Below, one piece after another: positions 14,264 to 55,355 of a stretch of DNA of 64,000 nucleotides; positions within the stretch are counted from its first letter, which is position 1, and each line of letters opens with the position of its first letter. The DNA is taken from IMG/VR virus record IMGVR_UViG_3300032007_001727. One strand, 5' to 3'. A program made the translations under genes and the position numbers. A model generated the notes under the pieces. The model did not search any database, was not told the DNA's origin, and worked only from the letters and a program-made list of their open reading frames with translations. The stretch is from a virus (lineage: Duplodnaviria > Caudoviricetes).

Positions 14264-14314
14264 AGAAATTGAAACTAAAAAGAAAGGTGGCCAATATCTG
14301 ACCACCTTTTATTG

Positions 14315-20831: not shown

Positions 20832-20882
20832 GACAAAAAAAGAAAGGTGGTCAGATATTGACCACCTTTTTATTGTTAAGTA

Positions 20883-33265: not shown

Positions 33266-33719
33266 AGTTAAATTAATTAATAAAGATTTAAGTTAAGTTA
33301 TTTATTTCTCTTTATAAATATCACAATGAGTTTGTTTTTCATGGAGAAATATCCACATATTTCACGTCTTCCCGCATAAATAGGGAGGATTGAACGTATA
33401 GTAAGCGTAGAAATTAATTTTTTAAAACACTTAATTCATTGATAATCAGATAGTTAGTGTTAAACCTTATGAATTAAGTTCATAAGACTTCATAAGGGTG
33501 AAAAATTGAAGGCGAAACCGTCAATGAAACATATATTGTTGTGGTGTTATAGTATGGTTTTGACTGACGGTTTTAAGGGAAATAAGAAAAAAAGAAAGGT
33601 GATAATGAAAGGGTGATAAAAAAAAGAATAAGAAGAAACAAGAACAAATTAAAAGTAGTAATGATTAGAAGGAGTAATAAAAAGAAAGGTGATATAAAAA
33701 CCTTAAAACAACAAAAAAC

Positions 33720-34190
33720 AATAATAAAATTGTGATAAAAATAGCATTTTTTCTGACCACTGCAAAAACCTTAAAAACTGTGATAAAAAGAAGCATTTTT
33801 TGTTACTGTTGTAAAAATCTTAAAAACCTTAATAAAAGGTGATAAAAAACAGCATTTTTTCCGACTGTTGAAAAAACCACAAAAACTGCAATAAAAACCT
33901 TAAAAAGAAGCATTTTTTCCGGCTGTTGTAAAAACCTTAAAAACCTTAATAAAAACCTTAAAAAGAAGCATTTTTTCCGGCTGTTGTAAAAACCTTAAAA
34001 ACCTTAATAAAAACAGTTTTCTTTTATTAATATTTTAATTTTTATTAATTTATTTAAACTCTGCTAAAATAAATTTCGCCTATATGAAAAATTTATTTTA
34101 ACTTGGCTAAAATAAATTAATATGATATTATTACCGGTACTATATTATTACATTATTATTTTCAGTACTATATTATTACATTATTATTAC
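33720..34190. repeat. Tandem ~50-59 bp repeats (x5) plus AT-rich direct repeats in a 1-kb non-coding island; candidate replication origin
   Basis: AGCATTTTTT starts at about 33743, 33792, 33851, 33909 and 33967; the last two units are identical. GTACTATATTATTACATTATTATT occurs twice. Confidence 0.75.
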
Positions 34191-36828: not shown

Positions 36829-37071
36829 CTAATGTATTTTTGAATTTCGGGGACAAAAGTACCTTCAATAATTGAAATGACGAAATGAAATATGGATTTT
36901 TTGAAAAAATGCCCCTTATATATAATATAATAATGTATATGGAAAAAAATTGTTTTTATTTGAAAATAATTTGATTTTTGTTTCGCTAATTCAAATTATT
37001 TGGGTACTTTTGCAACGTCAAAACAAAAAAACAATTAACATTATCGTCAAACAATTTAAATTTCAAAGATT

Positions 37072-38166
37072 ATGGCACACGGATTAGAAGAGAGAAATGG
37101 TAAGTTTTCATTCGCAGAGAATGGCAGTAGGGAACGCGCATGGCACGGCCTTGGTGAGGTATTTGACCGTCCAATGTTCATTGGTGAGGCTCTGAAGGCT
37201 TGTCGCGCTGACTTTAAGGTGCAGTTGCAGCCCATCGCAGCACTTTCGGATGACATTATCAATGCCATCGAGAACGGGGAAAGCATTGACGCTTCCATAT
37301 TGCGCGGCCTCATTGTTGAGGGCAAGAAGGCCACGGTACGCACCGACTTGAATGCTCCCTTGGGTATTACGAGCGACACCTACGGCATTGTACAGAATGA
37401 AGATGCGTTCAAGTTCGTGGATATGCTCTGCTCCGGCTTGGAGGCCGATAGGGATTCTCATCCTACGATTGAGTCATGCGGAGTGCTCGGCAAGGGTGAA
37501 AGAGTGTTCGTAACGTGCAAGATGCCGGAGGATATTATCCTTGACGCAAAGCGTGACGATAGGATTGAAACCTATGTGGTGTTCACCACGTCCCATGATG
37601 GCACCGGCGCCGTTCGCTGCATGGTCACTAACATTCGCGTGGTATGCTCCAATACGCTTGCATGGGCAATGCAGAACAATAGCGGACGTATTGCCTTCCG
37701 TCATTCTTCAAGAGTTATGAGCCGCCTTGACCTGCTCAACAAGGAGAACGCTGAATTCGCATATCGTACGCTTGGTTTGTGGCGTGAATATGAGAGTTCC
37801 TTCAAACAGAGTCTTGAGCACCTTCGCAATATCAAGATTAGCGAGCGGTTCTTGGAGGACTTGGTGGCCGAGGTGGCTTTGAGTGATGAGTCCAACAAGA
37901 TTTTCTTGGAGAGCCGCAACATCTTCCACGAGGACATACCGACAAGAGGCCGGAACATCTACCTTGGCATGATGAACGCCATGGAGAACGGCATCGGGCA
38001 GGACATCTTGGAGAGCGGAAACGCATTGTGGGCATTGAACGGCATTACAACGTATTTCCAAAACGAGGCCAACTTCAAGAACAGCGAAGTGATGTTCGAG
38101 AACATTATGGACGGCAACGTGTACAAGAAGGTACAGAAAGCATACGACAAGTTGGTCGCAGCCTAA
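37072..38166 (+). CDS. DUF932 (TIGR03299-like phage/plasmid) protein
   Basis: AWHGLG, YGIVQNEDAF, GVLGKGERVF, TSHDGTG, IRVVCSNTL, RHS. Confidence 0.85.
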   Translation: MAHGLEERNGKFSFAENGSRERAWHGLGEVFDRPMFIGEALKACRADFKVQLQPIAALSDDIINAIENGESIDASILRGLIVEGKKATVRTDLNAPLGITSDTYGIVQNEDAFKFVDMLCSGLEADRDSHPTIESCGVLGKGERVFVTCKMPEDIILDAKRDDRIETYVVFTTSHDGTGAVRCMVTNIRVVCSNTLAWAMQNNSGRIAFRHSSRVMSRLDLLNKENAEFAYRTLGLWREYESSFKQSLEHLRNIKISERFLEDLVAEVALSDESNKIFLESRNIFHEDIPTRGRNIYLGMMNAMENGIGQDILESGNALWALNGITTYFQNEANFKNSEVMFENIMDGNVYKKVQKAYDKLVAA

Positions 38167-38309
38167 AATGAGAGTCCTAAAGGTGGGTGCTGAAAGATGC
38201 ACCCATCTTTTTTTTATTTTTAATTGAAAATAATTTGATTTTTGTTTCGGTATTTCAATTTATTTGGGTACTTTTGCAGCGTCAAACAATTTTAAAATAG
38301 TTATAGATT

Positions 38310-38636
38310 ATGTTCGTATTAATTTTTGTCAAGAGTTATGAAAACGGGTTTTCGATAGAAAACTCCTATCAGACTGCCCTTTATGAGAGCAGGGAAGAAG
38401 CCGTAAAGGTTATGAAAGAGAGCGCAGAGAAGCACGTTAATTCCTATTTGGAAACGGAAGATGATGAGCACATAGAATTTACCGAATACGGGGATTTGGG
38501 GGAAAAGGGTTTGGGCTTGGATATTGAATATCAAGCCAATAAGATTTCGGTGACGGATGATTGCAGTTTGAGCAACCACTATAGGAAATGGGAATGGGTT
38601 GTTACGGCAAGTAAGCCGGAGATTGAAGTTTATTAA
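38310..38636 (+). CDS. Hypothetical early protein
   Basis: Follows a promoter repeat. Confidence 0.7.
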   Translation: MFVLIFVKSYENGFSIENSYQTALYESREEAVKVMKESAEKHVNSYLETEDDEHIEFTEYGDLGEKGLGLDIEYQANKISVTDDCSLSNHYRKWEWVVTASKPEIEVY

Positions 38637-38724
38637 CATTAAAGAAAAAAAGTTGGGATAATATTTCGTTATTCCAATTTTTTTTGGTATATTTGCAATG
38701 TGAAATAAATAATCAATATTAATT

Positions 38725-39081
38725 ATGTTAGTTAGAGTATATATTACATCAATAGAAATTGGCCTTGTGGTGAATGAGGCCGTTGATAGCGGGCTTTTGA
38801 GGCTACAGCGTAGTTTTGACGGTAAGAACGGGATTCTCGCCATATATGACGGGGAAATCAGCAAGATTGGCTTAGTTGCCCTTTCCGTCTTCGGGGTTAA
38901 GTTTTTCCCCTTGGATAACTATGGGGAATTTAAGATTACTTGCCCACATTGCGGCCGGAGAATTGAGGACGATTGGATTCTCACTTCATATACAGATGAG
39001 GTGTTGAGTGGAAAGAATATAAAGTGCGACAATGAGGAATGCGGCCATCAGATGGCTAATGTGGAATTTATTTTTAATTGA
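38725..39081 (+). CDS. Zn-ribbon hypothetical protein
   Basis: CPHC...CDNEEC. Confidence 0.65.
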   Translation: MLVRVYITSIEIGLVVNEAVDSGLLRLQRSFDGKNGILAIYDGEISKIGLVALSVFGVKFFPLDNYGEFKITCPHCGRRIEDDWILTSYTDEVLSGKNIKCDNEECGHQMANVEFIFN

Positions 39082-39305
39082 AAAATGTGTATGAGGATTA
39101 CGAAAGATTTCGTTATAGGGCAAGGACACGATACAGATTAGTATGACTGCATAATATAGTAATGAGATTGTTTTTGGAAATGGCATTTGTTGTGAAACAC
39201 GTGCCATTTTTTATTTTTAATTGAAAATAATTTGATTTTTGTTTCGGTATTTCAAAACTTTTGGGTACTTTTGCATTGTCAAACAAATAAAAACAATTTA
39301 AGATT

Positions 39306-40211
39306 ATGAAAAAGATTGAAGATGCTATCGCCTATAATCTGTTTCAATACGAAATGAACAGATTAAGCAAAATTACCTACAAGGGTTACGAAAAAACTTT
39401 GAAGGAGATTGGAATTGCCTATATTGCTTATTGCAATTCTTCTGCAAAATTAACGCATAACGGCAAGAAACATATGCTTACCTATGGCCTTTATTTGGCA
39501 TCATCTGACTTGTCCGGAGTGAACGTATGCCCAAAGAGCAAAATATGTCGTGAAAGTTGCCTTGTAGGTAGTGGTCACGCGAGGGTAGAGGGTTTGGCAA
39601 GTAAGGATAACTTGATTAATTCCCGTATCACCAAGACAAGGCTATTCTTCGCAAATAAGCCATTGTTTATGAAGTTAATGTGCATTGAGATTGACCGAGC
39701 CATTAGAAAGGCTGAAAGGGAAGGCATGGGCTTTTCCGTCCGGCTGAATTGTACAAGTGATATAAGCCCCCTTGCATTTTCATTGAATGGCAGGAACATT
39801 CTTGAAATATATCCGAATGTTTCATTCTATGACTACACCAAGGTAAAAAACTATTGGAAGATAACAGAGAGATATAATAACTATTATCTTACCTTTAGTC
39901 GTGACGGGAGCGAGGAAAACGATTCAGAGTGCATGGAATGGCTTTCGAGGGGCAATAATGTAGCCGTAGTATTTGGTGTACGCAAAGCGTCTGAATTGCC
40001 CAAGAAATGGAGAGGCTACGAAGTGTTGGTGGGTGACGATTACGATTATAGGGTATGGGACAAGTTGCAGGTTGGCAAACAGATTGTCGGCCTTGTATAT
40101 AAAGTGACCAAGAATGACTATGTAAAGGGTGAAGATGGCAAGTTTCACTTTGGTGGGATACCTAAATCTCCCTTCATCATACAAGCAAATGACAAGGATT
40201 GTGAGTATTAA
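39306..40211 (+). CDS. GP88-like phage protein (Cys-cluster)
   Basis: CPKSKICRESC, VRLNCTSD, FYDYTK, YLTFS, GNNVAVVF, GD..DYR. Confidence 0.7.
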   Translation: MKKIEDAIAYNLFQYEMNRLSKITYKGYEKTLKEIGIAYIAYCNSSAKLTHNGKKHMLTYGLYLASSDLSGVNVCPKSKICRESCLVGSGHARVEGLASKDNLINSRITKTRLFFANKPLFMKLMCIEIDRAIRKAEREGMGFSVRLNCTSDISPLAFSLNGRNILEIYPNVSFYDYTKVKNYWKITERYNNYYLTFSRDGSEENDSECMEWLSRGNNVAVVFGVRKASELPKKWRGYEVLVGDDYDYRVWDKLQVGKQIVGLVYKVTKNDYVKGEDGKFHFGGIPKSPFIIQANDKDCEY

Positions 40212-40284
40212 TTACTCACAATCTTTTTTGAAAAATAATTCCATTTTTATTTCGTCAATTCAAAAAGTTTGGGTAATTTTGCAT

Positions 40285-40355
40285 TGTAAATAGTAAATGT
40301 TGTTTGTTTAAGGTTGAGTGGCATTTGTTGTGAAACACGTGCCATTCTTTTTTTG
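40285..40355 (+). ncRNA. Stand-alone ~70-nt small RNA
   Basis: Early promoter repeat, then a U-rich tract, GUGA hairpin and U run, with no ORF in between. Confidence 0.55.
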
Positions 40356-40444
40356 TTTTTATTTGAAAATAATTGTGATTTTATTTCGTCATTTCAAAAC
40401 TTTTGGGTACTTTTGCATTGTCAAACAAATAAATGATAAAGATT

Positions 40445-43400
40445 ATGAAGTTTACATTGCATGGAAGAGAGTATGAAAGTTACCAATTGAGCAACGGCGC
40501 AATATTGGAATTGCTTGAAGGTAACACAATAAGCAATAAGCAGCGTGAATATCTCACCGGGAAGGTTCTCGAAAGATTTAAGAGCGATTTGTGTCCGAGA
40601 TATGGAGAGGGCACGGATGAGGTGTTTGCTCGTTTCTTCAGTGACTACGTGAACAGATGCCCCAATGATTTCAATAAGGCTGCAAGAGCCATGGGCACGG
40701 AACACAGATACTTACAGAGTGAAATGTTCAAGATGTGCCTTGCCTACATTAAGGAATTGTCGGAGCATTACGAAAGTGGCCGTTATGATGCCCGTAATGA
40801 ATGGGCTTGCCGGACAGCCAATGAGATAAACAAGATATTATAAAAATTTAGTAGCATATGAAGATTAAGGATTTGCCGAAGTTTTGCCTAAACATTGGCA
40901 ATACATTGGAAGATGAGTATGACGTGGCCGCAACCAACAATGGAATTTCCGTAAATGGTGAGATAGTTGGTGGCTATGATGAGGAAAGGGACATCAATGA
41001 TACTGATGATTTCTTAGAGTTGATTGATGATGCCATTCGTGAATGTGATGCCTTCACAGATGAGGACAAAGAAGAATTGGGAGTTGTTCTCTATAGTGAC
41101 GTACTGACATACGATATTGATTCTTGGTGGGACGAAGAAAAATTGTGAAAAAAAGTTGTGATTTTATTTCGTCAATTCAAAACTTTTGGGTACTTTTGCA
41201 ACGTCAAAACAAATAAACATTTTAATTAATATAGTATAAACAATAAAAAGATTAAAGTTATGAAGTTAGAAGTAAATGACATCGTGAAGATTCGCAGAGG
41301 CGACTTCGGAGTAGTAGTAGGTTTCAACAACAAGCCCTGCGCAATTCTGTTCCACTCCTTCACAAGTGTGCTGACGCGCTACAATGAGAACTTGAAGCAC
41401 TCCAACAAGGAATACGACATTGTGGCCGTGTACAACGGTGACAAGGTTGAGTCCTACAAGGAAGTATATCGGGCTAAATTCGACCCGGATGCCCTTGAAT
41501 TGGAGTTGCGGTACGAAGAATCCGTTTAACAATAATTAACAGAAATTGGAAAGGCATATTCTTTGCTTTTCCAATTTTTTTTTATATCTTTGCAAAAAAA
41601 GATAAGAAAAATGAAAATAACCACGGACGAAAGTAAGATTTATGAGAAGCATTGTGGCAAGAAGATTTGCACAGAAAATCTCAACATCGAAGGTTTTAAG
41701 AAGCCGATTCCATTTGACATCTATGATGGCTATGCAGTATGTTTAGACCATGGTGGCCATAGGTTTGATTTGGTTTATCCGACATTAAAGGCAATCAGCG
41801 AAAGCAAGGAACTATCCGATGCCATAATAGACTATGTCGGTGACATTTCAAACAAGTATGAAATCAGCGTCATTCATATCTTAATAACGTTTTCTACCTT
41901 ATACAAAGATGGGGTTGAGATAAAACCTAAGAAAAAATAAAAATTTAGGACTATGGGAAGATTTACTATTGAAATGAATTACAATGCCTCTATAATTGTT
42001 GAGGTGAACGCAGAAGATGAGGGAAAGGCATTAGATGAGGCAAGGAACATTGCCGAGGATGCGGATATTCGTGAATTTACGATTACATCTGAAAGAGAAT
42101 CAAGGATTCTCAAACGGGAATAAAAAAGTATCTCTGTTTTTAGACTGCAATAAATTGACTTGGTGAATTGCGTTTGTCGTGATGATAAGCGCAATTTTTT
42201 TTTAAAATAATTCCATTTTTGTTTCGGTAATTCAAAACTTTTGGGTACTTTTGCATCGTCAAACAAATAAAATGATAAAGATTATGACTAAAGAGGAAAT
42301 GGTTTTCGAGATTATGAAGTTTATCGCCCCCACGTTCGCGTCAAAAGGCGTTGAATTACAAGAACGTATAATTGCAGGTGGCGGCAACCCACAAGAGTGT
42401 ACAATTGGGGGTTATACAATTCTCGAGGCACAAGCGCAAAGCGCAAAGGAATGGGCAGAGGCTTTCGTAAATGTGTTATATAAATAAAACTTTAAACAAT
42501 GATTAAAGAGGAATTTTTGAAAACAATTGGTGGCTATCAAGCAGAGATAAGCGCACTCCATGACAAGATTGTAGAAACCACGGCCAAGTATCTCAAAGAG
42601 GCTGAAAAGCCCTACCCGGTTGGCTCGAAGGTTAGAGTCATCACCAATGAGCGAGGCACTAAGATTGTTCAAGCCGGAATCGTGACGGACTACACGCTCA
42701 ATCTTCAAGATGACATCACTCCGGTGATTATGAAGATGAAGAAGGACGGGACACCACATCCGACACAGAAGATTTGGTGTACATGGCGAAGTGTCATTGA
42801 ACCCATAACAGAATAAGGTTATGAAAAGGTTAGAAGAACTAAAGAGAAACAATGATACACGTTACTTCACCAATGGGAAGGTTTCCTTCCCATTGGATTT
42901 GTCCAAGATAACGTATGCGTCAAGAATTGATTTGGAACACGCAATGTACGCGGAGCGTGACGAGGAATGTGACTATCCTACAATTAATGAGTTGATTGCA
43001 AGCGGTTCTTTGCAGGAAAAGTCATATATCAAGATGTGTGATATAGATTATGAAAAATATCCGGCACAAGTTAGGCGAATGGATGAGAAGCAGATAGATG
43101 CCTTGTTAAAGAGGGTTCAAAACAAATTCAAGGCCAACGGATTCAATGTTACATTAGAGGCTTTGGTACATAACTTGAACGCATGGCTATTGGACTATAA
43201 GAGCGGCTATCTGGATGAGGCAAACAAGTATCATCTGTTCACTCCCTGCGGCTGCAACCCATTATCCTTTAGGGCTTCAGAGTTGGATGAGCACTGCCGA
43301 GATTGGCAAACAACATATGAAGCATAAAAAAAGTTGTGATTTTATTTCGGTATTCCAAAACTTTTGGGTACTTTTGCAATGTCAAACAATTTAAAACAAA

Positions 43401-43939
43401 TAAAGATTATGAGAATAAAAGGAAAAAAATCAATCAGTAATCGCATAGTTGAGATTGCTGAAAGCGGCAAGGCGATTGGGATGCCGAGCAAGTTTAATCT
43501 TCCACAGAACAAGGCCGTGCGCGAAAAGCATATTGCCATCTGTAAAGAGTTGGTTGAGATTTCTAAAAAGAACGGCAATTATCCGATAGGTACGCTTATT
43601 TACTTTGCCATCGGTACAAATTCCCATCGGACGGAAGTGTTTGAAAAGTGCTATCGGAAGATAGATGCCAAGAAGGCCGAAACCATCATCAGTTGGGTAA
43701 AGTTGTTCGCAGAGTATAACGATAACCCGAAAATGGTCAAGAACGCGAAGATTGCCCATGCCATCTGTTCCTTCTATGACAAGAACAATGGTGATACAAA
43801 GGCTTTCAAGATTGCCTTGGGGTGCTCGCAGCCGAATCCGGCAATAGAATCATTCAAGGAAACCGCCCAAGCATTGGGAATTGCGAAGGAGTCGCTTTCA
43901 GAGGCCGAGGCTGAAATGGCGGTGGTAACGGTTGAGTAG
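40445..43939 (+). CDS. Run of small early genes: 40445-40843, 40858-41148, 41260-41529, 41611-41940, 41953-42123, 42284-42487, 42499-42816, 42821-43327, 43409-43939
   Basis: Most follow a promoter repeat and an ATTATG-type start. No recognisable domains. Confidence 0.7.
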
Positions 43940-44051
43940 TTTTATTTTATATCAATCATATTTCCGATTTTCTATTTTTTGGTGAGTACCATCCGTGAGG
44001 AGCGGAAAGCCATTTTATTAACAAGAGTTTTAAATTTAAAATTAAATCAAT

Positions 44052-44525
44052 ATGAAAAAAATAGTTTATTCATTAGTGTTGATGATGTGTGTTATGTCGG
44101 TATTTAATTGTTCGAGCAACAATAGGCCGAAAACCATCATCGGGAGTTGGGAAACCATCAGTGTCAAGGGTGAAGTGAAGGAGTTTGGCGGTGAGTTCGA
44201 GCAAGATTTCACATCACAGCAGATAAACCCCATCTATGAGGAAATGTATCGTTTCAAACTAACCTTTGACGAGAACACTTGCGTAACACTTGTTTCGTCT
44301 GTCAATGGTCAATGGAAGGAAGATTCAGTTGATGTGTACAATTATATCCTCAACAATGGTATGGTGCGCATCTTGGACGTACGCAATAAGATGTTCGGAA
44401 ATGATAATGATGTGCCGCCCTTGGACGAAACGTTTGAGTATGCAATAATAGGTGACGAATTGTTTATGACTTGCTATAACGAGGATGAATATGTCACTTA
44501 CCGGCTGAAACGCATAAAAAATTGA
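44052..44525 (+). CDS. Lipocalin-like lipoprotein
   Basis: Signal peptide with Cys, IIGSWE motif, beta-rich. Confidence 0.6.
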   Translation: MKKIVYSLVLMMCVMSVFNCSSNNRPKTIIGSWETISVKGEVKEFGGEFEQDFTSQQINPIYEEMYRFKLTFDENTCVTLVSSVNGQWKEDSVDVYNYILNNGMVRILDVRNKMFGNDNDVPPLDETFEYAIIGDELFMTCYNEDEYVTYRLKRIKN

Positions 44526-44603
44526 AAAAAGTTGTGATTTTGTTTCGGTAATTCAAAAACTTTGGGTACTTTTGCAATGTCAAAACAAAAAAACGAATAG
44601 AAA

Positions 44604-44717
44604 ATGAGTAAAAGAAGTTTCAAAAGAGCGGTTGCGGCCGCAAAGGTTACGGCCATCCCGTCAAAGAAGAAAGGCAATGGACAAGATGCCATTCAGTTGT
44701 ACAACGTGTACAAATAG
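44604..44717 (+). CDS. 37-aa basic peptide (absent from the ORF track)
   Basis: MSKRSFKRAVAAAKVTAIPSKKKG..., directly after a promoter repeat. Confidence 0.55.
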   Translation: MSKRSFKRAVAAAKVTAIPSKKKGNGQDAIQLYNVYK

Positions 44718-45154
44718 GTAGCAGCACTACCGAATTTACGCTTGTGGACTACCCAACTGCCGAAAGGCGAACCACACGAATGTGTGGGGCTATGGATGAC
44801 AGACTCGGCAATGAGGTACTAAAAAGTAGTGGTAGGTTGAAGCAAGAAGTTAATAATGGATAAACAAATTTGTTCAAGTTTTAACATGCTGTACAAGTAA
44901 CTGATTATTAACCCGTGGAATATGGGGGTGTCCTCCGGAACACGATAGGTCGAGCAAGTTCATCGGTCACCCCCATCCACACAATTCAAGCCATTATGGA
45001 ACGTCCTCCACCCAAGTAAGGAATAATTCAGATAATTTATTTTTATTATTATATGCAAATTTAAAGCCCATAACACAATGAATCCAAGAGCAAGTCCCAT
45101 AAAATAGATTTTAATTCGTCTATACATTATACATTAATTATTTATTCTCTCGCA

Positions 45155-45260
45155 GGGATAAACCCAAACGATGGGTATCACCCTTGACGCAACGAAGTCC
45201 CCGGAGAGTCCGGCTGACATGAACGTCATTGGCGATTGCGGTTCGTTCCGCATTATCCCA
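45155..45260 (+). ncRNA. tRNA-like RNA whose anticodon loop is replaced by a multi-hairpin domain
   Basis: Acceptor GGGATAA/TTATCCC plus A; hairpin ACCCA/TGGGT; T-like arm TGCGG-TTCGTT-CCGCA; internal CCGGA/TCCGG and TGAC/GTCA. Confidence 0.6.
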
Positions 45261-45423
45261 CAATAAAAAAACTGTTTTTCGTAATTTGAGTTGTTTAGGT
45301 TAATTGTAACAGATGTGTTGTGATAACACGTCTGTTATTTTTTGAAAATAATTCTGTTTTTATTTCGTCAATTCAAATTATTTGGGTACTTTTGCATTGT
45401 CAAACAATTAAATAATATAAGTT

Positions 45424-48400
45424 ATGATTGAAAAGAAAGAAAATTTAGTAGAGTTGTCAAAGAAAATCGTAGATTTCAATGAGGCCGTGATTGCCGCTTG
45501 CAAGGCAAAAGGCATCGCAGTACCAAGCGCAGAGGAAATGAGCGACTATATGCACAATTATGGCTTTGATGTCCAAGATTTCATGCAAACCATCCAAGAG
45601 CAAGAGAAGGAGATAACTCCATTCGATGAGTTTAAAAATGAGGTTATGGGCATTTGTTGGAGCGATATGCCCACGGATAAGGAAATGCTTGCCTTCTTCA
45701 ATGAGAACGGCCACAATGTCCGCTTATTCATGATGCAGAGAACCATTCAAGATTTTAATAAGATTGAGAAGGCCATATATGACGCGGTAATTAACAAGTT
45801 TAGCATCGAAGAACTTGTTGGCCTTTGGAACTTCTTTATTGAAGAAAGTGCATTGTATGGGGAAGATTCCAAAATCTATGACCTTAAAAATTCGGATTCC
45901 ATCCCCATCATTGCAAACATGGGAGAAGCAGACGCAAGGAAATTGTTTAACGATGTAATCTGCAAGGGAAAGAGATTCTTCCAATTCATTGTCAGTATTG
46001 ATGTGAAAGAAGAAGATGATATTAAAGGCATCATTACGGCCTTTTGGGAGGAAATATGTGCGAGAATACTCATGTTCCCGATGGAGTATAATAATAATGT
46101 TGCTCCAAGTTCCTGCCTATTTATGGAAGTTGTGTGGCCGATAATTACCAAAGAGGCCGGAGTTGTTATTAATTATTTTCAGAATGAATTAAAATACACC
46201 CATTAAATAATTAGATTAGATATGAAATTAAGGGACGAAATAATCGACCACATTGACCGAGGGTTTAGGGATGTGGTGTTTTACAAAAGGGATGCCAAAG
46301 GCATATATGGGATTTTATCGGCAAAGATACATGGAAGTTCAACTTTAACGATGATTCCGAAGATACCAAAGAATATTGTTGTTACGGCAATAGATGAGCG
46401 GCACGACAAGGTTGTCTTTCCATATGAAGATTTGGAAGTAGAAGCGGTTATAACGTGGAACAAGGCACAAAACGGATGGGCGATGAAAGCGATAGAGTGA
46501 CAAGATAAAACTTAATTTATAAAAACCTTCTTGTATGGAATTTTTCTTTCAAGAAGGTTTTTTCTTTGTTTATTTCTTGTTTTTTAAAAATATTTTATAT
46601 ATCTTTGCATTGACAATGTTTAATTGTCGTTCAAGGAATAAAAACCTTTTTAAATTGAGATAAGCAAACGTTGGGGGACGTTTGCTTATTTTTTATTTGA
46701 AAATAATTGTGATTTTATTTCGGTATTTCAAAAACTTTGGGTACTTTTGCAATGTCAAACAAATAAAAACAAATAAAGATTATGGAAAAGATTTGGTTAA
46801 TGACCCAAGAAAGCAAGGTGGATGGGGATATTTTCTTTAATGTCATTCCTTGCGCAACGGAAGAGGCCGCAAAGGCTGAAATGGAGAAGGAGATTCGCAC
46901 CTTGATGAATAAGAGTCCTTATATCGAATATACGAATAGGTCTCTCGATTTTATCCGTGAAGAAACTGAAACCTCATACTACATTGAGGACACTTGCGAT
47001 GCTTATTATGAGTACATTAGGATAGAGAAAAAGGAAATAGTAAAGTAATAATAAGATTATGAGCACACCTTGTAAAATTATCATGAAAGTTCCCGAAGAA
47101 TACAAGGGAACGACCATTAAGTTCAATAAATCAGCCCTTCCTATTGAATTGAAGGAATGGTACGAGAAGGACGAAAAGACAAATGAGGTTTGGTTAGACC
47201 AAAGATGTAAGGAAAAATCACGGCCAATAAAGATTAAGGGTGATTACATTGGCATATATTGCCATTGGGATGGCGATAAAATCGGCAAGGTATTGAAGGA
47301 ACTATTCACCGACAAGAAAGCCGTATTGAACCTTATTGCCGGTGGTTTCTGCTCATTTATATGGTATGATGGTGTTAAACGCTATGCCAATAGGAATTGC
47401 GAAATGTGGAAGGACATAAAGCCAATACAAGGCTCTCGTAAAAAGGTAGAAGAGAGCATCTACGGACTCTATGAGTATGTATTTGTCAATACTTGGACTA
47501 AAAGGAAACTATGAAAAAATAACTTGATTTTTATTTCAGTATTTCAATTTTTTCCGGTACTTTTGCAATGTCAAACAATTTAAAGCAAATAAGATTATGG
47601 GTAAACATGTTCATGTAGCAGTAAAGTATGAGGTAAGTTATGATTCCTCATGTGGTTTTAATTGGCACAATGTGGAGTTTAAGGAATTACTCCAAGCCTT
47701 GAATGTCAGCACATACGATGCAGATGGAGAATTAACTGACGGATTTTCCGACACATGGGAATGTCATTCGGATGAGTACAACGAGGCATTGACTTTCTTG
47801 AAGGAGCATAAGGAGGACATACGCAGCCTTGATGAGGATGGTGATAAGCCGGAGTGTAACGGCTACGATGTCGAGTGTGAGGACATCTATGAAGCAATAA
47901 TTGGCCTTGAATGCGGCAATGGCTTTGAGGATTCATACGAAGAAGTTGTTAAGATGATGGAACTATTCCAAAAACAAGCGGCAACATCGGACGGATATAT
48001 GCACTTTTGTGCCTTCTGAAATAATGGTTGGGGTGAGGATTTTTATCTTCACCTCAACTTTTTTTGTTTTTATTTAAAAATAATTTGATTTTTATTTCGG
48101 TATCTCAAAGTTTCTTGGTACTTTTGTATCGTCAAACAATTTAAAATAAATAAGATTATGAAGAAAGCAATCGAATTAATGAATCAGATGATTCCTATGA
48201 AGAAGGAAGTAAAAAAGACTTGTATCGCATACCTAAAGAGGGTGTTGGAGAAGTGCAATAACAATTACTTGTCCTTCTATGACGAGGATGGTGAGGCATA
48301 TGGCAACAGATACGTTTCCGTCACCTATGACGGGGGAAACCATCCGGAGTATGAAAGCAATGCCTTCAGTACCGTAAAGGGTGTTTTCATTGACAAATAC

Positions 48401-51400
48401 GGGGACATCTGCCTTGACACAGAGGATGATGATGCCTATGCCATTGAGAACATCAACCTTGAAGAACTCTATGACATCGCGGAGTATGTGTATGCAGACG
48501 TGGAAGAAACAATAAACCAATAATTTAGAAGAACGTTAAATTGAGGTGGGGATTTTATCTTCACCTCTTTTTTTATTTTTAATTGAAAATAATTACATTT
48601 CTATTTCGTCAATTCAAAACTTTTGGGTACTTTTGCAATATCAAACAATTTAAAACAATAAATATTATGACCTATTCACTTATAATTGAACAATATTGCG
48701 CTGATGCCAAGTATGTCAATGACATAAAGACTTGGAAGGAAGTAACCGATTTCTTGAAGAATCAGTTATCACAACTAACAACTTGTGTTCACATCTTCAA
48801 GTTTTCAAGCAACAGCAAGACCCTCGGCTCGAAGGTTGTGACAATGGGCAACCTCTTTGATGTGTGCAATTCTCTTACGGACAAGATATTGTTATAAATC
48901 AAAAACAAAATAAGACTATGGCACATTATAAAGAAGAAGTTAGATTTTCTACAAAGTTCAAGAGATTCAATGTTTTCACAACAAGTGGGGAAAACGTAGT
49001 AGTGAAAAGTGACAAGCCAATGACATTGGATGAGGCAATGTATGAGTATAAGGCACTTGCCATTGGCGGAATAGATTAAATAAACTAAAAACAAAATAAG
49101 ATTATGAGAAGATTAGCGATTATTGACCATGACACCCATACATTGTATGTGGACGATGTGGATGAGAAGGAGTTAGAGGAATATTATGATGGTGATGAAC
49201 AAGCCTACATCGAGGATAATTATGCCCTTCTTAATAATTACTCATGGGATTGGGTTACAGATGGCATCTATTACAAGAAGATGTACGAAACTGGAATCGA
49301 CATCGATTTTGACAAGTTAATAGAAGAATAAACAATTATTAAATAAAAAGTAAACAAATGAACAAAGAATTATTAACGGTCGAGTTTCGTTATCACGTCA
49401 TTCCAAAATCAGAATATGATTCCGACTTTGAGTCAAAAGAAGTTACGATTGGAGTGTATGAAACGCTCGATGAGGCTATAAAAGAAGGAAACAATGTCCT
49501 TAAAAAATTATCTTCAAGATTTAAGTTTCGTGAATCATTTGGCACTCATAATGGCGTGTTTGGTTCTCCCACACGACTTGTTTGTGACTGCTTCAATGGC
49601 TATCCGCAAGTGTTCTGCAAAATAACGCAACTAAAATATGACAATATAAATAATGTTGCGAACGTGGCTTTTGACAATGAGGAAAAATATCGTAAATGGT
49701 GTGTATAAGTTAAAAACAAAATTATGATTGCAAGAATTACATTCCGAAGCGAAGTTTACGTTGAAGGCGATAATATCGAAGATATTGCAAGGAAATGGGA
49801 AGGTATGGAACTTTACTCCGCTGAAGCAAACAAGGGAATGGTATCACTATCCCCGGCCGAGTTTGTTGAACTTGACAAAGTAGAAGATGAAAATTATAAC
49901 GACATCACAGATGAATTTAAGAGAAAATAAGTGGTGGGGGAGAAATCCTCCACCTTTTTATTTAAAATAATTTGATTTTTATTTCGTCATTTCAAAACTT
50001 TTGGGTACTTTTGCAATGTCAAACAAATAAAAACAATAAGATTATGGAAGAAATAATTAAACTTCAAGAAGAAATTGACAAGAAGCAATGTAAGGTTAGA
50101 AAAGGCTGTATTGAATACCTTAAAAGAGCCACCGAAAAAGTTGGTGGAACAATCTGCATGGATGATGAGGAAGACGTAGTTATGGTAGCCTATGATGGTG
50201 GACGTCACCCGGAATATGACAGCAATTTGTATTCAGCGGTAGAAAGCGTTTTTCTCAAAGATGGTAAACTCTACCTTAGCATAGAGGACTGCGATGAGTA
50301 TGAGATTGACCGCGTAAGTAGCGATGAAGTCTATGCCGTTGCCTTGTTCGTTTACGGCATGCTTAACGAAAATGCCTAATAGAAATACTTTTGCAATGTC
50401 AAACAAATAAAGATTATGAAAACAAAAAATGATTCAAGGACAAAGAGAAGGGTTGTCGAAACCTACAAGGGATTTGACATCATAAAGGTAATTGTTGAGT
50501 ATTTTCATAAATCCTTCTACGGCTATGAGTATGATGATGATTGGGTAGATAGAAGGACTGTTTACTTTGACTTCTGCAAGGAAGGAGAGGGCAAGAAGTC
50601 AAGCCAAGCATATTCGGTATATGCAAAGAACATTTCAGATTGCAAGGAATGTATTGACAAGTTCATCGAGGATGATTCCTTGTACTTCACAGATGAGGAA
50701 GTAAGGAAGTATGTAACAAAGCCGAACCATGATTGCGGTTGGGCTTATGGGTACGACTCATTGATGAAACTCATGAAGCAGCACCAAAAGGCTGATAAGC
50801 GAATGAAACGGCTTATTGAGGATAGGCTATCCGATGCTAACTTTCATTCCGAGGCTGGTTTCCTCTCGCAAGAAGATTATGTAGGTTTCACTGATTTGGT
50901 AAGAAAAACCTACAAGTTCTGTGAGAAGTTTGAAATCTATACTGAAACAATGGGAAAGAGGATTGACAATCCCAAAGGGCTTGAAGAAGGCTTGAAGATG
51001 GTTATCAATGACTTTCTTAAAAAACGAGGCATAGAAGATACGGACGTTAAGGTCAATTTTGTGGAAAATTGGTGAGTGGAGCAATCCACCACCATTTTTT
51101 TTTTTGAAAATAATTCTATTTTTATTTCGTCAATTCAAAAAGTTTTGGTACTTTTACATTGTCAAACAAATAAAAACAAATAAAGATTATGAAAAGAACA
51201 ACTAACATTAGGATTGAATCATTCGACCTATCACGAGAGCAGCATGATATGGCGGTTGAAATGGTCGTGAATGACAAGCGCAAGGTAGCCTCTTACACCT
51301 TGGAAGAGGTGGATGGCGAAATGGCTAATGTATGGATTTCCGAAGCCCATTCCGAGGGCAATACAGATTATGCGGAGTTCCTTCGCAAAGCCATTGCTGA

Positions 51401-53234
51401 GAACGCAGAACTTTACACCCTCACAGACCATTTAGGTGGGTTTGCACAGCCTATCGGTGAGGTGGCAGCATTTCAGAAGCAGTATTTCACAATTGATATT
51501 TAATGGCATATGTTTACTCTATTCACATTACTTTTAATCATTTATTGGTTATCCATATCGATAATTGAAGACGGTTTTGAATACACTTGCAAGGAGTATC
51601 TTAAAGGGTTAATTATGATGCTATTGTTTGCTATGGCCGTTGATGGGTTCTTCATAGTAATATCACATCTGTTATAATCATGGAAAAGAAAGCATTTTAT
51701 AATAAGTTGTCCGGCACTCGCTATGAGATAGTGGATAGCGCATGGATAGACAAAGATACATTCGTCATTGTCTTTCAAGATATGAAAGACATAGATGGTG
51801 ACACGTTCCATTTCGAGGCTGAATACCATAAGGACGAACAAAAGGTGACATTCTGCTTGGTATATGAGAATCAAGTGTTAAGCGGAGAGGACTGCATCCC
51901 AACCTCAATAAAGAGAGAGATTGAGGAATATATGCTAAAGCAATTAGATGTGGTCAAGGGGATGCTTATAAAGCATAATATTACGCTTGAATTGTCGCTT
52001 GACATTGACGAAAACTTGACAATGGATGAATTAAGGGCATATCTTAATACCTTGGACATAGATGTGAAGGGTTATGGTGACAAAGTGAATTGCATAGGAG
52101 TTAAACGAATAAATTAGGCGGATTTTATGATGATTGAAGCAAAAATAATTCTGTTTTTGTTTCGGTAATCCAAAAAGTTTGGGTACTTTTGCATTGTCAA
52201 ACAATTTAAAAACAAATAAAGATTATGGAATACAAAGACATTGCACCCGTTGTTAAACATGATTATGCAAAGCCATATAGGGTCAAGTACGCAAACGGAA
52301 AGACAGCCATTGTGCGCCTTTGGCTTGCATCTAACGGATTGGTAGCCAAGTTGGCTAAAGGGAGAAAGGTACACGGCTATGTGCTTGGTTATTACGACTA
52401 CAAGGATTGGGTGTCGTTGAAGGCAGTGGAGAAGAAGCCGACAAGCACGTTCACCCTCATGAAGAAAAGGGCAACAGATGCCTTGAAGTATCTCACACAG
52501 AGCGGAATGTGGCCTTCAATTAAGAAGGAGATAGAACATTTCCTTTCCGATGATGCCATCATACAAGCCGTAGCCGATGCCATTGACAAGGATTCATACG
52601 AGTCTTTCTACAAGGAATGCTACGAGAACGGGAAATTCCCATGGTGTCACACCACACAAGTGTTCGAATCCTTTGCCGCCAAAAGATGTTGGCAGTCTAT
52701 CCCATATCAAAGGTGGGAAAGGGAAAGGATGAACCAAAGAATAAGTAATGCCATTGAGGATAGGCAAGACTTCAGTTACCGTTGGACTAACGGCTATGAC
52801 AATACAATAGAGATTAGCGGTGGCGAAGAACTAAGGGGATGGCTATCATGTGAATACAGAGGCTGCGGAAACGGACATTACTACCTTCTATTTGATGCTA
52901 CCCATGCCATCTTCTACGAGGACGATTGAAAAGTAATTAAAAATAGATTAATAATAAAAAGATGAACAAAGATATTGAAAGAATAAAGGGTATTGTGCTC
53001 TCGAAAGGGAGCACAGACCCAAAAGGCGGCAGGGTGCTCAAACTAGAGGCCGGAAAGGTTACGGTACTATCGAGGGCCAAAGAAAGACTTTATCCCGTGG
53101 CCCTGCGCGTATACCAAGAAGAATTGCAAGTGGTTTTCGTTAATAAGAGAAAGAGATTCTTTTCCTATCCATTGCTATCACTGCAAAGTGATGCTCCTAA
53201 GTTATTCGAAAAGGTCATATCCGTCTTTTGTTAA
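45424..53234 (+). CDS. Run of small early genes: 45424-46206, 46222-46500, 46782-47048, 47059-47514, 47597-48019, 48158-48523, 48667-48897, 48918-49079, 49104-49331, 49358-49708, 49724-49930, 50044-50379, 50416-51075, 51189-51503, 51680-52117, 52225-52929, 52962-53234
   Basis: Promoter repeats and A-rich leaders. 48158 and 50044 are paralogues (YDGG.HPEY.SN). 47059 has a GIYCHWDG motif. Confidence 0.7.
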
Positions 53235-53392
53235 CAAATGTTAAAATGTTGGCAAATATTTTGGATTGTCAAATATTTTATATATCTTTGCAATGTCTTG
53301 AAAAGGACGATAAAACATAATTAAAGAACTCGGTTGCGGTGGACAACACGCCAAACTATAGTTAAGAGTTAGGGCATTTAAAAACCACCTTT

Positions 53393-53517
53393 TGGGAAGT
53401 ACTAGAGGAGAACCATCTTGCAATCCTGCAAGGGTGGATGTAGACAAATAGGTATCAAGTTTGTGCTTGATATGTCGCCTACGGGCGGCTTCGGCGGTGC
53501 AAATCCGTCCTTCCCAA
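53393..53517 (+). ncRNA. Expanded cloverleaf tRNA-like RNA, copy 1
   Basis: TGGGAAG/CTTCCCA acceptor, U8A9, D stem CTA/TAG, long variable arm, T arm GGCGG-TGCAAAT-CCGTC. Confidence 0.8.
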
Positions 53518-53574
53518 CAAATTTCTTGCGGTGGACAAGGACGGAATTAATCCGAAAAAAAACCACCTATCTTT

Positions 53575-53690
53575 TGGAAGATACCGGAGGAGAACTATCC
53601 GCAAGGGTAGATGTAGACAAACGGGTATCAAGTATGTGCTTGATATGTCGCTTACGAGCGGCTTCGGCGGTGCAAATCCGCCTCTTCCAA
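53575..53690 (+). ncRNA. Expanded cloverleaf tRNA-like RNA, copy 2
   Basis: TGGAAGA/TCTTCCA acceptor, D stem CCG/CGG, compensatory changes relative to copy 1. Confidence 0.8.
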
Positions 53691-53708
53691 CACTTTTGTT
53701 TGACGCGA

Positions 53709-53756
53709 TGAGGGTTCGGCTTTTCTAAATCTTTACGGCCGAACCCTCTATTTTTA
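53709..53756 (+). terminator. Intrinsic terminator
   Basis: GAGGGTTCGGC / GCCGAACCCTC stem followed by a T tract. Confidence 0.7.
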
Positions 53757-53864
53757 TTCAACCCCAATTGAAACATATATCACACCATAAAAAAGAAGTG
53801 TGTCATAAAACACACTTCTTTCGCTTTCTGACGGCCTTTAACCATTGGGGCAATACTTTCCCGG

Positions 53865-54062
53865 TCACTTAATTCCAAGCCTCTTACATAACGCTTCAAG
53901 CATTCTATCCTTGATGCTTGCCACCTTCCAATTCTTTTCGTCCTTTCCGATTAAGATGTCTTTGACAATGAAGGACTTTAATTCTTGTTTTGTTTTAAAC
54001 CCGCATTTGCGGCAGAACGAAGCACATTCCTCAATGAACTTGTTAAACTTCTCGTCATCCAT
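53865..54062 (-). CDS. Hypothetical protein
   Basis: Divergent promoter TATATTTG upstream. Confidence 0.55.
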   Translation of the reverse strand: MDDEKFNKFIEECASFCRKCGFKTKQELKSFIVKDILIGKDEKNWKVASIKDRMLEALCKRLGIK

Positions 54063-54167
54063 ACACAGAAAAATATTTTTGGTTACACAATGCAAATATA
54101 TCAAAAATATTTCGGTATTCCAAACTTTTGGGGTACTTTTGTGATGTCAAATAAAATAATAACGATT

Positions 54168-54401
54168 ATGGCAATAGATATTTCGAAACTACCATTGACT
54201 CAGTTAAGGAGTTTAAGGAATTGCTGCTATAACTTGGTTATACGCAATCTAAGACAATGTCCGGAGGGCGATGAGAAATATAGGAAGATAAGAATACTCT
54301 TGTCACAATTCTATCTTGGTATCGTTGCACAGAATGAGTTGCTTCAAGAATGTGTCGAACTCGGATGGATTAATGAAAAAAACATCACCCATTTCTTGTG
54401 A
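54168..54401 (+). CDS. Hypothetical early protein
   Basis: Follows a promoter repeat. Confidence 0.6.
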   Translation: MAIDISKLPLTQLRSLRNCCYNLVIRNLRQCPEGDEKYRKIRILLSQFYLGIVAQNELLQECVELGWINEKNITHFL

Positions 54402-54438
54402 TTAAAGAATATTTTATATATCTTTGCATTGTGACAAT

Positions 54439-54512
54439 CGGGGTGTAGCGCAGTTGGTTAGCGTGCTTGTTTTGGGAACAAGTGGTCGTGTGTTCGAGTC
54501 ACACTACCCCGA
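54439..54512 (+). tRNA. tRNA-Pro(TGG), CCA not encoded
   Basis: CGGGGTG acceptor start, anticodon arm CTTGT-TT TGG GA-ACAAG, T loop TTCGAGT. Confidence 0.93.
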
Positions 54513-54604
54513 CATCTGCTTGAATCTATACTTGTATTTTCTACTACCAAATTCCAACCGGCTGTGAAGTTAGTTGGAATTTTATTTTACCCATTTCCCA
54601 TATA

Positions 54605-55355
54605 GACTTAATTAAGTACATAGAGGGGCGTACCACACCCATTCACCATTGTATCATTATTTATTATAGATTAATAATAATTTTCCCTTACAGATATTGC
54701 ATATAAAAATTGTGCACCACACTTAAATTCATATGTGGTACACAATCCGTATAGTCCATTCCATATTACCTATGGACTTAATTAAGTACATAGAGGGGAC
54801 TTTGGAATGACGGATTCCATTATATCCTCCGTCCATCATCACTTAATCACAATTTGACCCTCTAGCGACAATATGTGTCTATCCTTGTGTCATAGTGCTC
54901 ATATCTAATCTTTTCACCCAACAACCTAGCAACCTTCTTGCACTCCAATACATCTTCCCATTTGCATCCCATTGTTGTCCGGTAGCAGAATCCATCACGA
55001 AGCCAATCCACTGAATAGATTTTAGTTTTTCTGACTATCTTTTTTTCATTTCCAATTATTTTTTTCATAGTTCGCTATGTTATTATATGATTATCTATTA
55101 ATTTATTCATATATATTATCATTATATTATGTATGCAACTAACTTCTAAGTCCATCATGTGGAGCGTCCATCCTTTGCCGGAGGCAATTCCCCGGAATCC
55201 TTACACCATCCACATATTTCTATATTTTTCTTCATATTCCTATCTAATTTCATTACAAAAGTACCCAAAAGTTTTGGAATATCGAAATAAAAATCAATTT
55301 ATTTTTCCTCCCCCACAAATGATAGTATTAATTCTATAGACTTAATAAAGTACAA
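54605..55355. repeat. Palindrome (G)ACTTAATTAAGTACA cluster 2 (54606, 54776, variant 55339)
   Basis: The first two copies are followed by TAGAGGGG, as in cluster 1. Confidence 0.8.
54862..55068 (-). CDS. Hypothetical protein
   Basis: 68-aa ORF. Confidence 0.5.
   Translation of the reverse strand: MKKIIGNEKKIVRKTKIYSVDWLRDGFCYRTTMGCKWEDVLECKKVARLLGEKIRYEHYDTRIDTYCR

What the first reader, a model, noticed from the sequence alone, without database searches (positions are those of the whole stretch)
39150..54590. Family of GUGA-loop hairpins with variable U-rich 5-prime tracts: candidate guide-like small RNAs
Seen: six hairpins share a GTGA loop on a short stem with a nearby bulge or mismatch, followed by a T run. 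They are at 39181 and 40319 (both TGGCATTTGTTGTGAAACACGTGCCA), ~42167, ~43990 (TCC-GTGA-GGA), ~45308 and ~54552 (GGCT-GTGA-AGTT). Each follows a non-coding U-rich stretch, and the 40319 copy has its own early promoter with no ORF (~70-nt transcript). Reverse complements of the tracts look like A-rich Bacteroidota translation-initiation regions (43950-43972 gives AGAAAATCGGAAATATGATTGAT). Inference: antisense sRNAs with a constant protein-binding handle that silence host or phage mRNA leaders.
Basis: partly seen in the sequence, partly recalled or inferred. Interest (0 to 1): 0.7.

Follow-up and report, generated by a model that had tools for sequence, protein, structure and literature searches.

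The report
FopS-like small RNAs in jumbo phage
The GUGA-loop hairpins are transcription terminators of a giant Bacteroidales phage's early genes; four are built from the tail of a known host regulatory RNA family (FopS), and one has a conserved front end mirroring the phage's own early gene start sites, so it may switch genes off.

Summary
Five of the six hairpins are real and stable. The one at ~43990 is not. All five sit where intrinsic terminators belong: behind early genes or a tRNA and before the next copy of a near-identical Bacteroidota promoter.

They are more than generic GNRA terminators. Four (39166-39216, 40286-40354, 42134-42206, 45272-45344) carry, exactly or nearly, the hairpin-tip motif UGUYGNGA(U)RACA. 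In 875 kb of Bacteroidales DNA this motif occurred only in FopS small-RNA genes (81 of 81). A model of the FopS 3' half, built without this phage lineage, places these four among the five best hits of the window. A relative phage carries a FopS copy above Rfam's threshold.

The element at 45272-45344 also keeps a FopS-like anti-start-codon seed. It is conserved in four related phage sequences. It is the best of 12,794 plus-strand windows for pairing with the phage's own early start regions. The 40286-40354 unit is a stand-alone gene for an RNA of about 69 nt, with its own promoter.

No expression data could be obtained. This scan has noted FopS-like RNAs in other jumbo phages before.

The parts
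36975..54143 (+). Early-gene region. It holds about 18-20 cassettes, each with a near-identical Bacteroidota-type promoter (-33-like TTTCG, -7 box TAnnTTTG) and an A-rich leader ending in AGAUUAUG.
   Evidence: Promoter core: 27 matches against 3.1 expected. Repeat families D1-D7. 21 copies in the whole record. Terminators precede 11 of 19 promoters.
45272..45344 (+). e1: FopS-like sRNA module at the 3' end of a long non-coding transcript. Seed tract 45272-45305, terminator hairpin 45306-45338, U run 45339-45344.
   Evidence: Rfam RF04319: 27.9 bits over the full model, E 0.065-0.48. R2 3'-module model: 22.7 bits, best hit of the window. Seed identity to FopS is 12 of 18 in register. Rank 1 of 12,794 windows against early start regions. 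Orthologues in G001, L313, L311 and L314.
44718..45271 (+). Non-coding stretch between a small basic ORF (44604-44717) and e1. It is the presumed precursor transcript from the promoter at ~44537-44576.
   Evidence: No plus-strand terminator lies between the promoter and e1. Only the e1 tract is conserved against the G001 counterpart.
40244..40283 (+). Early-type promoter copy that drives e3 and no ORF.
   Evidence: D3 repeat copy, 83% identical to the reference; -7 box at 40274-40281.
40286..40354 (+). e3: stand-alone predicted RNA of about 69 nt. It has a divergent 5' tract, a UUUAAGGUU box at RNA positions 22-30, a FopS-type hairpin at 40316-40347 and a U run.
   Evidence: The start site is predicted from the rule TTTG + 4 nt, seen in 111 bacterial FopS genes. 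R2: 18.6 bits. Tip motif present. Fold.
39166..39216 (+). e2: duplicate of the e3 hairpin (26 of 26) in the 3' UTR of ORF 38725-39081, preceded by UUGUUUUUGG. No intact promoter.
   Evidence: R2: 17.2 bits. Tip motif present. Syntenic FopS-tip terminators in relatives L312 and L315.
42134..42206 (+). e4: 3'-UTR element behind ORF 41953-42123. CUGUUUUU at 42134, hairpin 42165-42197 whose tip differs from the canonical FopS tip at one base, then a U run.
   Evidence: R2: 22.2 bits, local match to the hairpin and tail.. No complementarity to early start regions.
43985..44015 (+). e5: weak, probably decayed hairpin around TCC-GTGA-GGA (43992-44001).
   Evidence: z -0.7. No hit with R2 or Rfam.
54439..54582 (+). 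tRNA-Pro(UGG) at 54439-54513, followed by e6, its GUGA-loop terminator at 54549-54582.
   Evidence: No FopS signal.
51037..51106 (+). Possible fifth FopS-like 3' module. It has a GCAA loop and overlaps the end of ORF 50416-51075. Doubtful.
   Evidence: R2: 22.4 bits, E 0.021. Most of the score comes from the coding part and the U run.

Best explanation
The window is part of a jumbo phage of Bacteroidales. Its early region is a row of short cassettes, each with a strong host-type promoter, an A-rich leader and often an intrinsic terminator. The GUGA-loop hairpins are these terminators.

Four of them (e1 45272-45344, e2 39166-39216, e3 40286-40354, e4 42134-42206) derive from the 3' module of the FopS family of Bacteroidales small RNAs. 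FopS RNAs are 65-70 nt long. They have a single-stranded 5' seed that pairs across the start codon of target mRNAs and blocks translation initiation, followed by a terminator with a GNGA loop.

I take two of the four to be working small RNAs. e1 is released from, or acts as, the 3' end of a long non-coding early transcript. Its seed (UUUUUCGUAAUUU and onward) pairs with the conserved early start region AGAUUAUGAAAAA, so it would repress translation of the phage's early genes, and possibly of similar host start sites. e3 is a stand-alone RNA of about 69 nt, made from an early promoter, with a different and still unassigned seed. e2 and e4 may be no more than terminators that kept the FopS tail. 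e6 is an ordinary tRNA terminator and e5 is decayed.

Shown: the hairpins, their positions, the FopS-specific sequence signature, the conservation of e1 and its complementarity. Inferred: transcription, processing, pairing in vivo and repression.
For: Terminator role. Stable hairpins with T runs lie directly before promoter copies.

FopS link.
- Rfam RF04319 matches e1 over the full model: 27.9 bits, E 0.065 in 900 nt.
- Relative phage G002 has a copy at 58.5 bits, above the 56-bit cut-off. G001 has copies at 29.5, 21.3 and 18.4 bits.
- Model R2 was built from the 3' parts of 110 FopS genes from other viral contigs and bacteria, with the seed excluded. It gives e1, e4, e3 and e2 scores of 22.7, 22.2, 18.6 and 17.2 bits. 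These are four of the five best hits in 64 kb on both strands; the next hit scores 12.4.
- The complete 412-kb relative yields only one R2 hit.
- The tip motif occurs 81 times in 875 kb of bacterial loci, always behind a FopS seed. In the 135.8-kb record it hits e1, e2, e3 and, with one base relaxed, e4, plus one coding site.
- GNGA loops are found in about 118 of 125 FopS-type terminators.

e1.
- Its seed is 12 of 18 identical to the FopS seed, in register. Such identity occurs at 53 of 63,982 positions.
- It is the only conserved island in about 700 nt of non-coding DNA compared with G001.
- Orthologues exist in G001, L313, L311 and L314.
- Duplex energy with 18 early start regions has z -3.4 to -3.9 against shuffles.
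- It ranks 1 of 12,794 windows.
- Early start regions are preferred over random 40-mers (p 1.6e-6) and over non-early start regions (p 0.006).
- The G001 orthologue gives z -3.6 and the L313 orthologue z -2.2.
- The best duplex is near-continuous across the AUG of gene 39306, at -18.9 kcal/mol.

e3. It has its own promoter, a predicted length of 69 nt, and the UUUAAGGUU box one base from its FopS position.
Against:
- None of the window's elements reaches Rfam's gathering score. Only e1 matches RF04319 at all.
- R2 also gives 22.4 bits to a GCAA-loop terminator that overlaps a coding end, so scores near 20 bits are not fully specific, and R2's E-values are rough.
- In relatives, FopS-tip hairpins sit 18-30 nt behind stop codons with no seed (L312, L318). 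This shows the module is often used as a bare terminator.
- The L311 orthologue of e1 shows no enrichment against its own start regions (z 0.0).
- About 10% of random 40-mers pair with e1 as well as the average early start region does. No single outstanding target emerged in a whole-record scan.
- e1 has no promoter of its own, so a discrete small RNA needs processing. Its anti-start tract could be a relic of an inverted leader copy.
- e3 is not conserved in G001.
Confidence: 0.5

Rival explanations
1. They are plain intrinsic terminators. The FopS-like tails are inherited or shuffled terminator modules that stop transcription between cassettes and do nothing else. The e1 complementarity and the orphan promoter unit are by-products of duplications and deletions among near-identical promoter-leader repeats.
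For: All the stable hairpins lie at cassette ends before promoters. e2 and e3 are one recent duplication. Relatives use the same tip directly behind stop codons without any seed, and terminator types at the syntenic site are swapped freely. e4, e5 and e6 show no start-region complementarity. e3 is absent from G001.
Against: e1's 5' tract is conserved in four related phage sequences while the surrounding non-coding DNA is not. It ranks first of 12,794 windows for pairing with early start regions. A promoter that drives only about 69 nt with a FopS-like layout is hard to explain as a mere remnant. A terminator needs no conserved upstream tract.
Confidence: 0.3
2. They are host-directed mimics. 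The phage RNAs act on host mRNAs, for example susC-like outer-membrane transporters, the known FopS targets. Alternatively they soak up the host protein RbpB or host FopS RNAs, remodelling the cell surface or metabolism during infection.
For: Relatives carry canonical or near-canonical FopS seeds (G002 at 58.5 bits; G001:176527). FopS represses susC translation and is bound by RbpB (PMC11697453). e1 also pairs well with non-early start regions in general. No RRM protein is encoded by the phage records, so a host partner would be needed.
Against: The host genome is unknown, so no host target could be tested. The seeds of e1 and e3 differ from the canonical seed at the positions that specify the target. 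The canonical seed shows no affinity for the phage's early start regions, so the two seed types are not interchangeable.
Confidence: 0.12
3. The e1 tract insulates in cis. On transcripts that read through the terminator, it pairs with the start region of the next gene about 130 nt downstream. Only promoter-initiated transcripts would then be translated.
For: e1 pairs with the leader of the adjacent gene 45424 at -14.5 kcal/mol. The element sits directly upstream of a promoter.
Against: Pairing is as good or better with many distant early leaders. The adjacent terminator is strong (-17.8 kcal/mol).
Confidence: 0.05
4. It is chance. GNRA loops are common in terminators and U-rich tracts are common in AT-rich intergenic DNA.
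For: The genome is 38% G+C. Other GNRA loops (GAAA, GCAA) also occur among the terminators.
Against: Fisher p 0.0024 for GTGA loops. The tip motif is FopS-specific, 81 of 81. R2 hits cluster in this region.
Confidence: 0.03

Closest known systems
FopS (family of paralogous sRNAs; Rfam RF04319) and GibS of Bacteroides thetaiotaomicron (PMC11697453)
   Same: The 65-70-nt layout: a single-stranded U-rich 5' seed antisense to the start-codon region, a UUUAAGGUU-type middle box, a Rho-independent terminator with a GNGA loop and the tip UGUYGNGA(U)RACA, and a sigma-ABfr-type promoter (e3). One bacterial member, FopS-14, is derived from a 3' UTR, as e1, e2 and e4 would be.
   Different: All elements score below the Rfam cut-off. 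The seeds differ from the invariant 21-nt FopS seed. e1's seed fits the phage's own early start motif rather than susC-type starts. The elements lie in a phage early-gene region and double as cassette terminators. RbpB binding is untested.
FopS sequence in a Caudovirales phage, noted in one sentence of PMC11697453
   Same: A FopS-type sequence carried by a phage of Bacteroides.
   Different: That note concerns a canonical copy and suggests only dissemination. Here there are several diverged copies with altered seeds in a jumbo phage.
c4 antisense RNA of phages P1 and P7 (from my own knowledge, not checked here)
   Same: A phage-encoded small RNA, cut from a longer transcript, that blocks a ribosome-binding region of phage mRNA.
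   Different: It has no sequence relation and belongs to a different host phylum. It has a single target operon on the same transcript.
RegA translational repressor of phage T4 (from my own knowledge, not checked here)
   Same: An early product that represses translation of many early mRNAs by occupying their start regions. This is the proposed role of e1.
   Different: RegA is a protein, not an RNA.
Ordinary Rho-independent terminators with GNRA tetraloops
   Same: Stem, loop, U run, and a position at the end of a transcription unit.
   Different: Generic terminators have no conserved tip sequence shared with an sRNA family and no conserved upstream tract.

Membership tests
FopS sRNA family (Rfam RF04319) | Match to the covariance model at or above the gathering score of 56 bits | tested here: not met
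   The best window element is e1 at 27.9 bits. e2-e6 give no match at E up to 10. Relative G002 does meet it at 58.5 bits.
FopS sRNA family (Rfam RF04319) | Single-stranded 5' seed R1' (about 21 nt, starting GUGUUUUUCAU), antisense to a start-codon region | tested here: inconclusive
   e1 is 12 of 18 identical in register, with its first 10 nt unpaired in the fold. e2 and e4 keep only UGUUUUU. e3 has a different tract.
FopS sRNA family (Rfam RF04319) | Rho-independent terminator with a GNGA loop and the conserved tip UGUYGNGA(U)RACA | tested here: met
   e1, e2 and e3 match exactly and e4 differs at one base. The motif is FopS-specific in 875 kb of bacterial DNA. R2 scores are 17-23 bits.
FopS sRNA family (Rfam RF04319) | Own sigma-ABfr promoter with the start 4 nt after TAnnTTTG, giving a transcript of about 65-70 nt | tested here: inconclusive
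   Met for e3 only: predicted start 40286 and 69 nt. e1, e2 and e4 lack a promoter and would be 3'-derived like FopS-14. No transcript ends were observed.
FopS sRNA family (Rfam RF04319) | Binding by RbpB and translational repression of susC-type mRNAs | not testable with these tools
No RRM protein is encoded in the phage records.
Intrinsic (Rho-independent) terminators | Stable G+C-containing stem-loop directly followed by a U run, at the end of a transcription unit | tested here: met
   Met for five of six, each before a promoter copy or after a tRNA. Not met for ~43990.

The most novel reading that the evidence does not exclude
A jumbo phage lineage has taken over the scaffold of its host's FopS small RNAs and re-aimed the seed at the conserved start region of its own early genes. 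An early transcript would then yield an RNA that shuts off early-gene translation, an RNA counterpart of T4 RegA. Further re-aimed copies such as e3 would hit other, still unknown targets.
Probability: 0.3. Interest if true: 0.8.

Novelty: new variant of a known kind. Interest (0 to 1): 0.62.

Why it matters
Post-transcriptional control in Bacteroidota is poorly known, because the phylum lacks Hfq and ProQ. FopS is one of its few mechanistically understood sRNA families.

If phages carry diverged FopS copies with new seeds, two things follow. First, the FopS scaffold would be a portable, re-programmable antisense device whose GNGA-loop terminator is under selection beyond termination. Second, giant phages of gut and rumen Bacteroidales would regulate their own early genes, or host genes, by sRNA. 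That would be a directly testable case of phage-host RNA mimicry.

It also gives a practical signature for finding such RNAs: the tip motif plus an anti-start seed. If the elements turn out to be only terminators, the finding is modest: terminator modules recycled from an sRNA gene.

Tried and rejected
- Megablast of 39000-46000 against GenBank phages: no match.
- Exact search for the 26-nt hairpin in IMG/VR: none.
- Rfam at gathering threshold: only the tRNA.
- A degenerate e1-seed pattern in IMG/VR returned 39 loci, of which only G001 was relevant.
- Model R1, built with an automatic structure, had no base pairs and was not used.
- Scanning the whole record for single best targets of e1, e3 and e4 gave no outstanding site.
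- The canonical FopS seed and the G001:176527 seed show no significant pairing with early start regions. The idea that host FopS targets these leaders is therefore not supported here.
- A weak match of e3 to Bacteroides sRNA BTnc201 (18 bits against a cut-off of 105) was dismissed as generic.
- Coding potential of the e2 and e3 tracts was rejected, because the frames are not shared by the two copies (read from the sequence).
- Antitermination (boxB-like) and kink-turn readings were considered and dropped for lack of any supporting feature.
- The search for an RRM (RbpB-like) gene in the three phage records was negative.
- The L311 orthologue gave no start-region enrichment.


Full report
**Context.** The window is bases 66596-130595 of a 135.8-kb IMG/VR virus record, rated about 45% complete. 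Its closest relatives are a complete 412.5-kb jumbo phage (G001), a 104.9-kb fragment (G002) and 17 metagenome contigs. Between about 36.9 and 54.2 kb the plus strand holds about 18-20 copies of a roughly 100-nt module. The module has a Bacteroidota-type promoter (TTTCG, about 19 nt, TAnnTTTG) and an A-rich leader ending in AGAUUAUG. The promoter core gives 27 matches against 3.1 expected. Eleven of 19 promoters are preceded by a strong hairpin and a T run. The genes are typical early or unknown phage genes, such as DUF932 and GP88.

**Observation.** Five of the six hairpins are real and stable; the 43990 one is not.
- The 39181 and 40319 copies are identical.
- 42165 and 45306 fold with a GUGAU or UGA loop.
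- 54552 follows tRNA-Pro.
- GTGA-containing loops are enriched: 5 of 17 early-region hairpins against 2 of 72 elsewhere (p 0.0024).
- The 40319 copy is indeed a promoter-to-terminator unit without an ORF.

**What the hairpins resemble.** An E-value scan of Rfam matched 45272-45344 to RF04319, the Bacteroides FopS family. The match covers the full model at 27.9 bits, against a cut-off of 56.

FopS RNAs are 65-70 nt long. They have a single-stranded 5' seed that pairs at the start codon of susC-type mRNAs and blocks translation, then a terminator. They are transcribed from canonical promoters and bound by RbpB (PMC11697453).

Searching RF04319 in the relatives gave:
- a copy above the cut-off in G002 (58.5 bits), inside the same early region;
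- weaker copies in G001 at 29.5, 21.3 and 18.4 bits.

The 21-nt FopS seed is present in at least 109 IMG/VR contigs and at least 120 Bacteroidales genomes. Among these, about 118 of 125 terminators have a GNGA loop, and GUGA is the commonest.

**Independent test of homology.** I aligned the 3' parts, with the seed excluded, of 110 distinct FopS genes from other viral contigs and from bacteria. From these I built model R2.

With filters off over the whole window, the five best hits were:

| Region | Bits | Note |
|---|---|---|
| 45290-45343 | 22.7 | e1 |
| 51037-51106 | 22.4 | GCAA loop, overlaps a coding end, doubtful |
| 42167-42203 | 22.2 | e4 |
| 40307-40353 | 18.6 | e3 |
| 39166-39215 | 17.2 | e2 |

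The next hit scored 12.4 bits. For comparison, the true FopS of G002 scores 31.1. In 49 kb of relatives only two hits passed, both with FopS-like seeds. The whole 412-kb G001 gives one hit.

The hairpin tip UGUYGNGA(U)RACA occurred 81 times in 875 kb of bacterial DNA, every time behind a FopS seed. In the phage record it marks e1, e2, e3 and, with one base relaxed, e4. I conclude that these four terminators descend from FopS genes. e6 and e5 show no such signal.

**The element e1.**
- *Seed similarity.* Its 18 nt upstream of the R2 match are 12 of 18 identical to the FopS seed, in register. Such identity is reached at 53 of 63,982 positions.
- *Conservation.* Against the G001 counterpart of this non-coding region, the e1 tract is the only conserved island. 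Orthologues in G001, L313, L311 and L314 share GUUUUYC, then C or G, then A or G, then UAA, and later UUAGGUU. The outer stems differ.
- *Pairing with the sRNA tract shuffled.* Mean duplex energy with 18 early start regions is about -14 kcal/mol against about -9.5 for shuffles, z -3.4 to -3.9.
- *Rank among windows.* Of 12,794 plus-strand 34-nt windows it ranks first, ahead of true antisense strands of other gene starts.
- *Target class.* Early start regions are preferred over random 40-mers (p 1.6e-6) and over non-early start regions (p 0.006).
- *Best duplex.* At -18.9 kcal/mol, it runs almost unbroken across the AUG of gene 39306.
- *Orthologues.* G001 behaves alike (z -3.6), L313 more weakly (z -2.2) and L311 not at all (z 0.0). 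Canonical FopS seeds show no such affinity.
- *Transcription.* e1 has no promoter of its own. It ends a transcript that would start at the promoter near 44565 and contains a 37-codon basic ORF and about 550 nt of non-coding RNA.

**The element e3 and the others.** In 111 bacterial FopS genes the RNA starts 4 nt after TTTG of the -7 box. Applying this rule, e3 starts at 40286 and ends near 40354, which is 69 nt. It carries UUUAAGGUU at positions 22-30, against 21-29 in FopS, and the FopS tip, but a different 5' tract. Its pairing with early leaders is marginal (z -2.9; about the 4th percentile).

e2 is a promoter-less duplicate. e4 keeps only UGUUUUU and the tip. In relatives the same tip is found 18-30 nt behind stop codons without a seed, and the terminator type at the syntenic site varies. 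The module therefore often serves as a bare terminator.

**Verdict.** The hairpins are terminators, and four are FopS-derived. e1 is a credible anti-start-codon RNA and e3 a credible stand-alone sRNA gene. Function is inferred, because no RNA data could be obtained. The source paper mentions a FopS sequence in one phage in passing. Earlier notes of this scan describe FopS-like RNA sets in other jumbo phages. I reached the FopS link before reading those notes, and they are not independent evidence.

Noticed in passing
window 33680-34040 (minus strand): Tandem repeats of about 60 nt, rich in TTAAGGTTTTT units, in a gene-free stretch. They look like iterons and may mark a replication origin or a protein-binding array.
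   Followed up: no
window 53330-53700 (+): Two tandem copies of a roughly 173-nt unit, whose conserved 100-nt core is 87% identical between the copies, lie behind a second promoter type that is also used for tRNA-Pro. Each folds into a tRNA-like cloverleaf with an acceptor-like stem, a T-arm-like hairpin and extra arms. ARAGORN calls them only at a relaxed threshold, and Rfam finds nothing.
   Followed up: partly
window 54601-54620, 54771-54790, 55335-55354; also L011 ~400 and ~850; G001 near 161050: A conserved, nearly palindromic motif (GACTTAATTAAGTACA type) is repeated at the end of the early region. In all three phages it lies next to a FopS-like element. It may be a promoter of another class or a recombination site.
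   Followed up: no
IMG/VR loci L024-L132: About 100 viral contigs of 30-65 kb carry the exact 21-nt FopS seed without a canonical promoter. It is followed by a CCGUGAGG-tipped hairpin and no T run. This appears to be a different, longer RNA that shares the FopS 5' end.
   Followed up: no
window 44604-44717 (+) and L010 10406-10582: A small lysine-rich ORF (37 aa here, 58 aa in G001) is conserved in position ahead of the long non-coding stretch that ends in e1. It has no Pfam match.
   Followed up: partly
window 44960-45127 (minus strand): A 55-codon ORF with a hydrophobic N-terminal half lies inside the non-coding stretch, opposite to the early transcripts. It is unclear whether it is a gene.
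   Followed up: no
G001:176440-176530 (L015): A tRNA-like sequence with a long variable arm directly follows the FopS-like element at G001:176527-176601. Its identity was not checked.
   Followed up: no
G000 45838-45862, 80878-80904, 87440-87462 (the last two = window 14283-14309 and 20845-20867): A second family of near-identical terminators: a bidirectional hairpin with a GATAT/ATATC loop, repeated three times. Terminator modules are evidently copied around this genome.
   Followed up: no
L311 ~2140-2210 and L314 ~1320-1390: A further FopS-like element is present in related contigs. It has UUUUUCAU, then UUUAAGG, then the canonical tip, and pairs significantly with that phage's early start regions (z -3.2).
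   Followed up: partly
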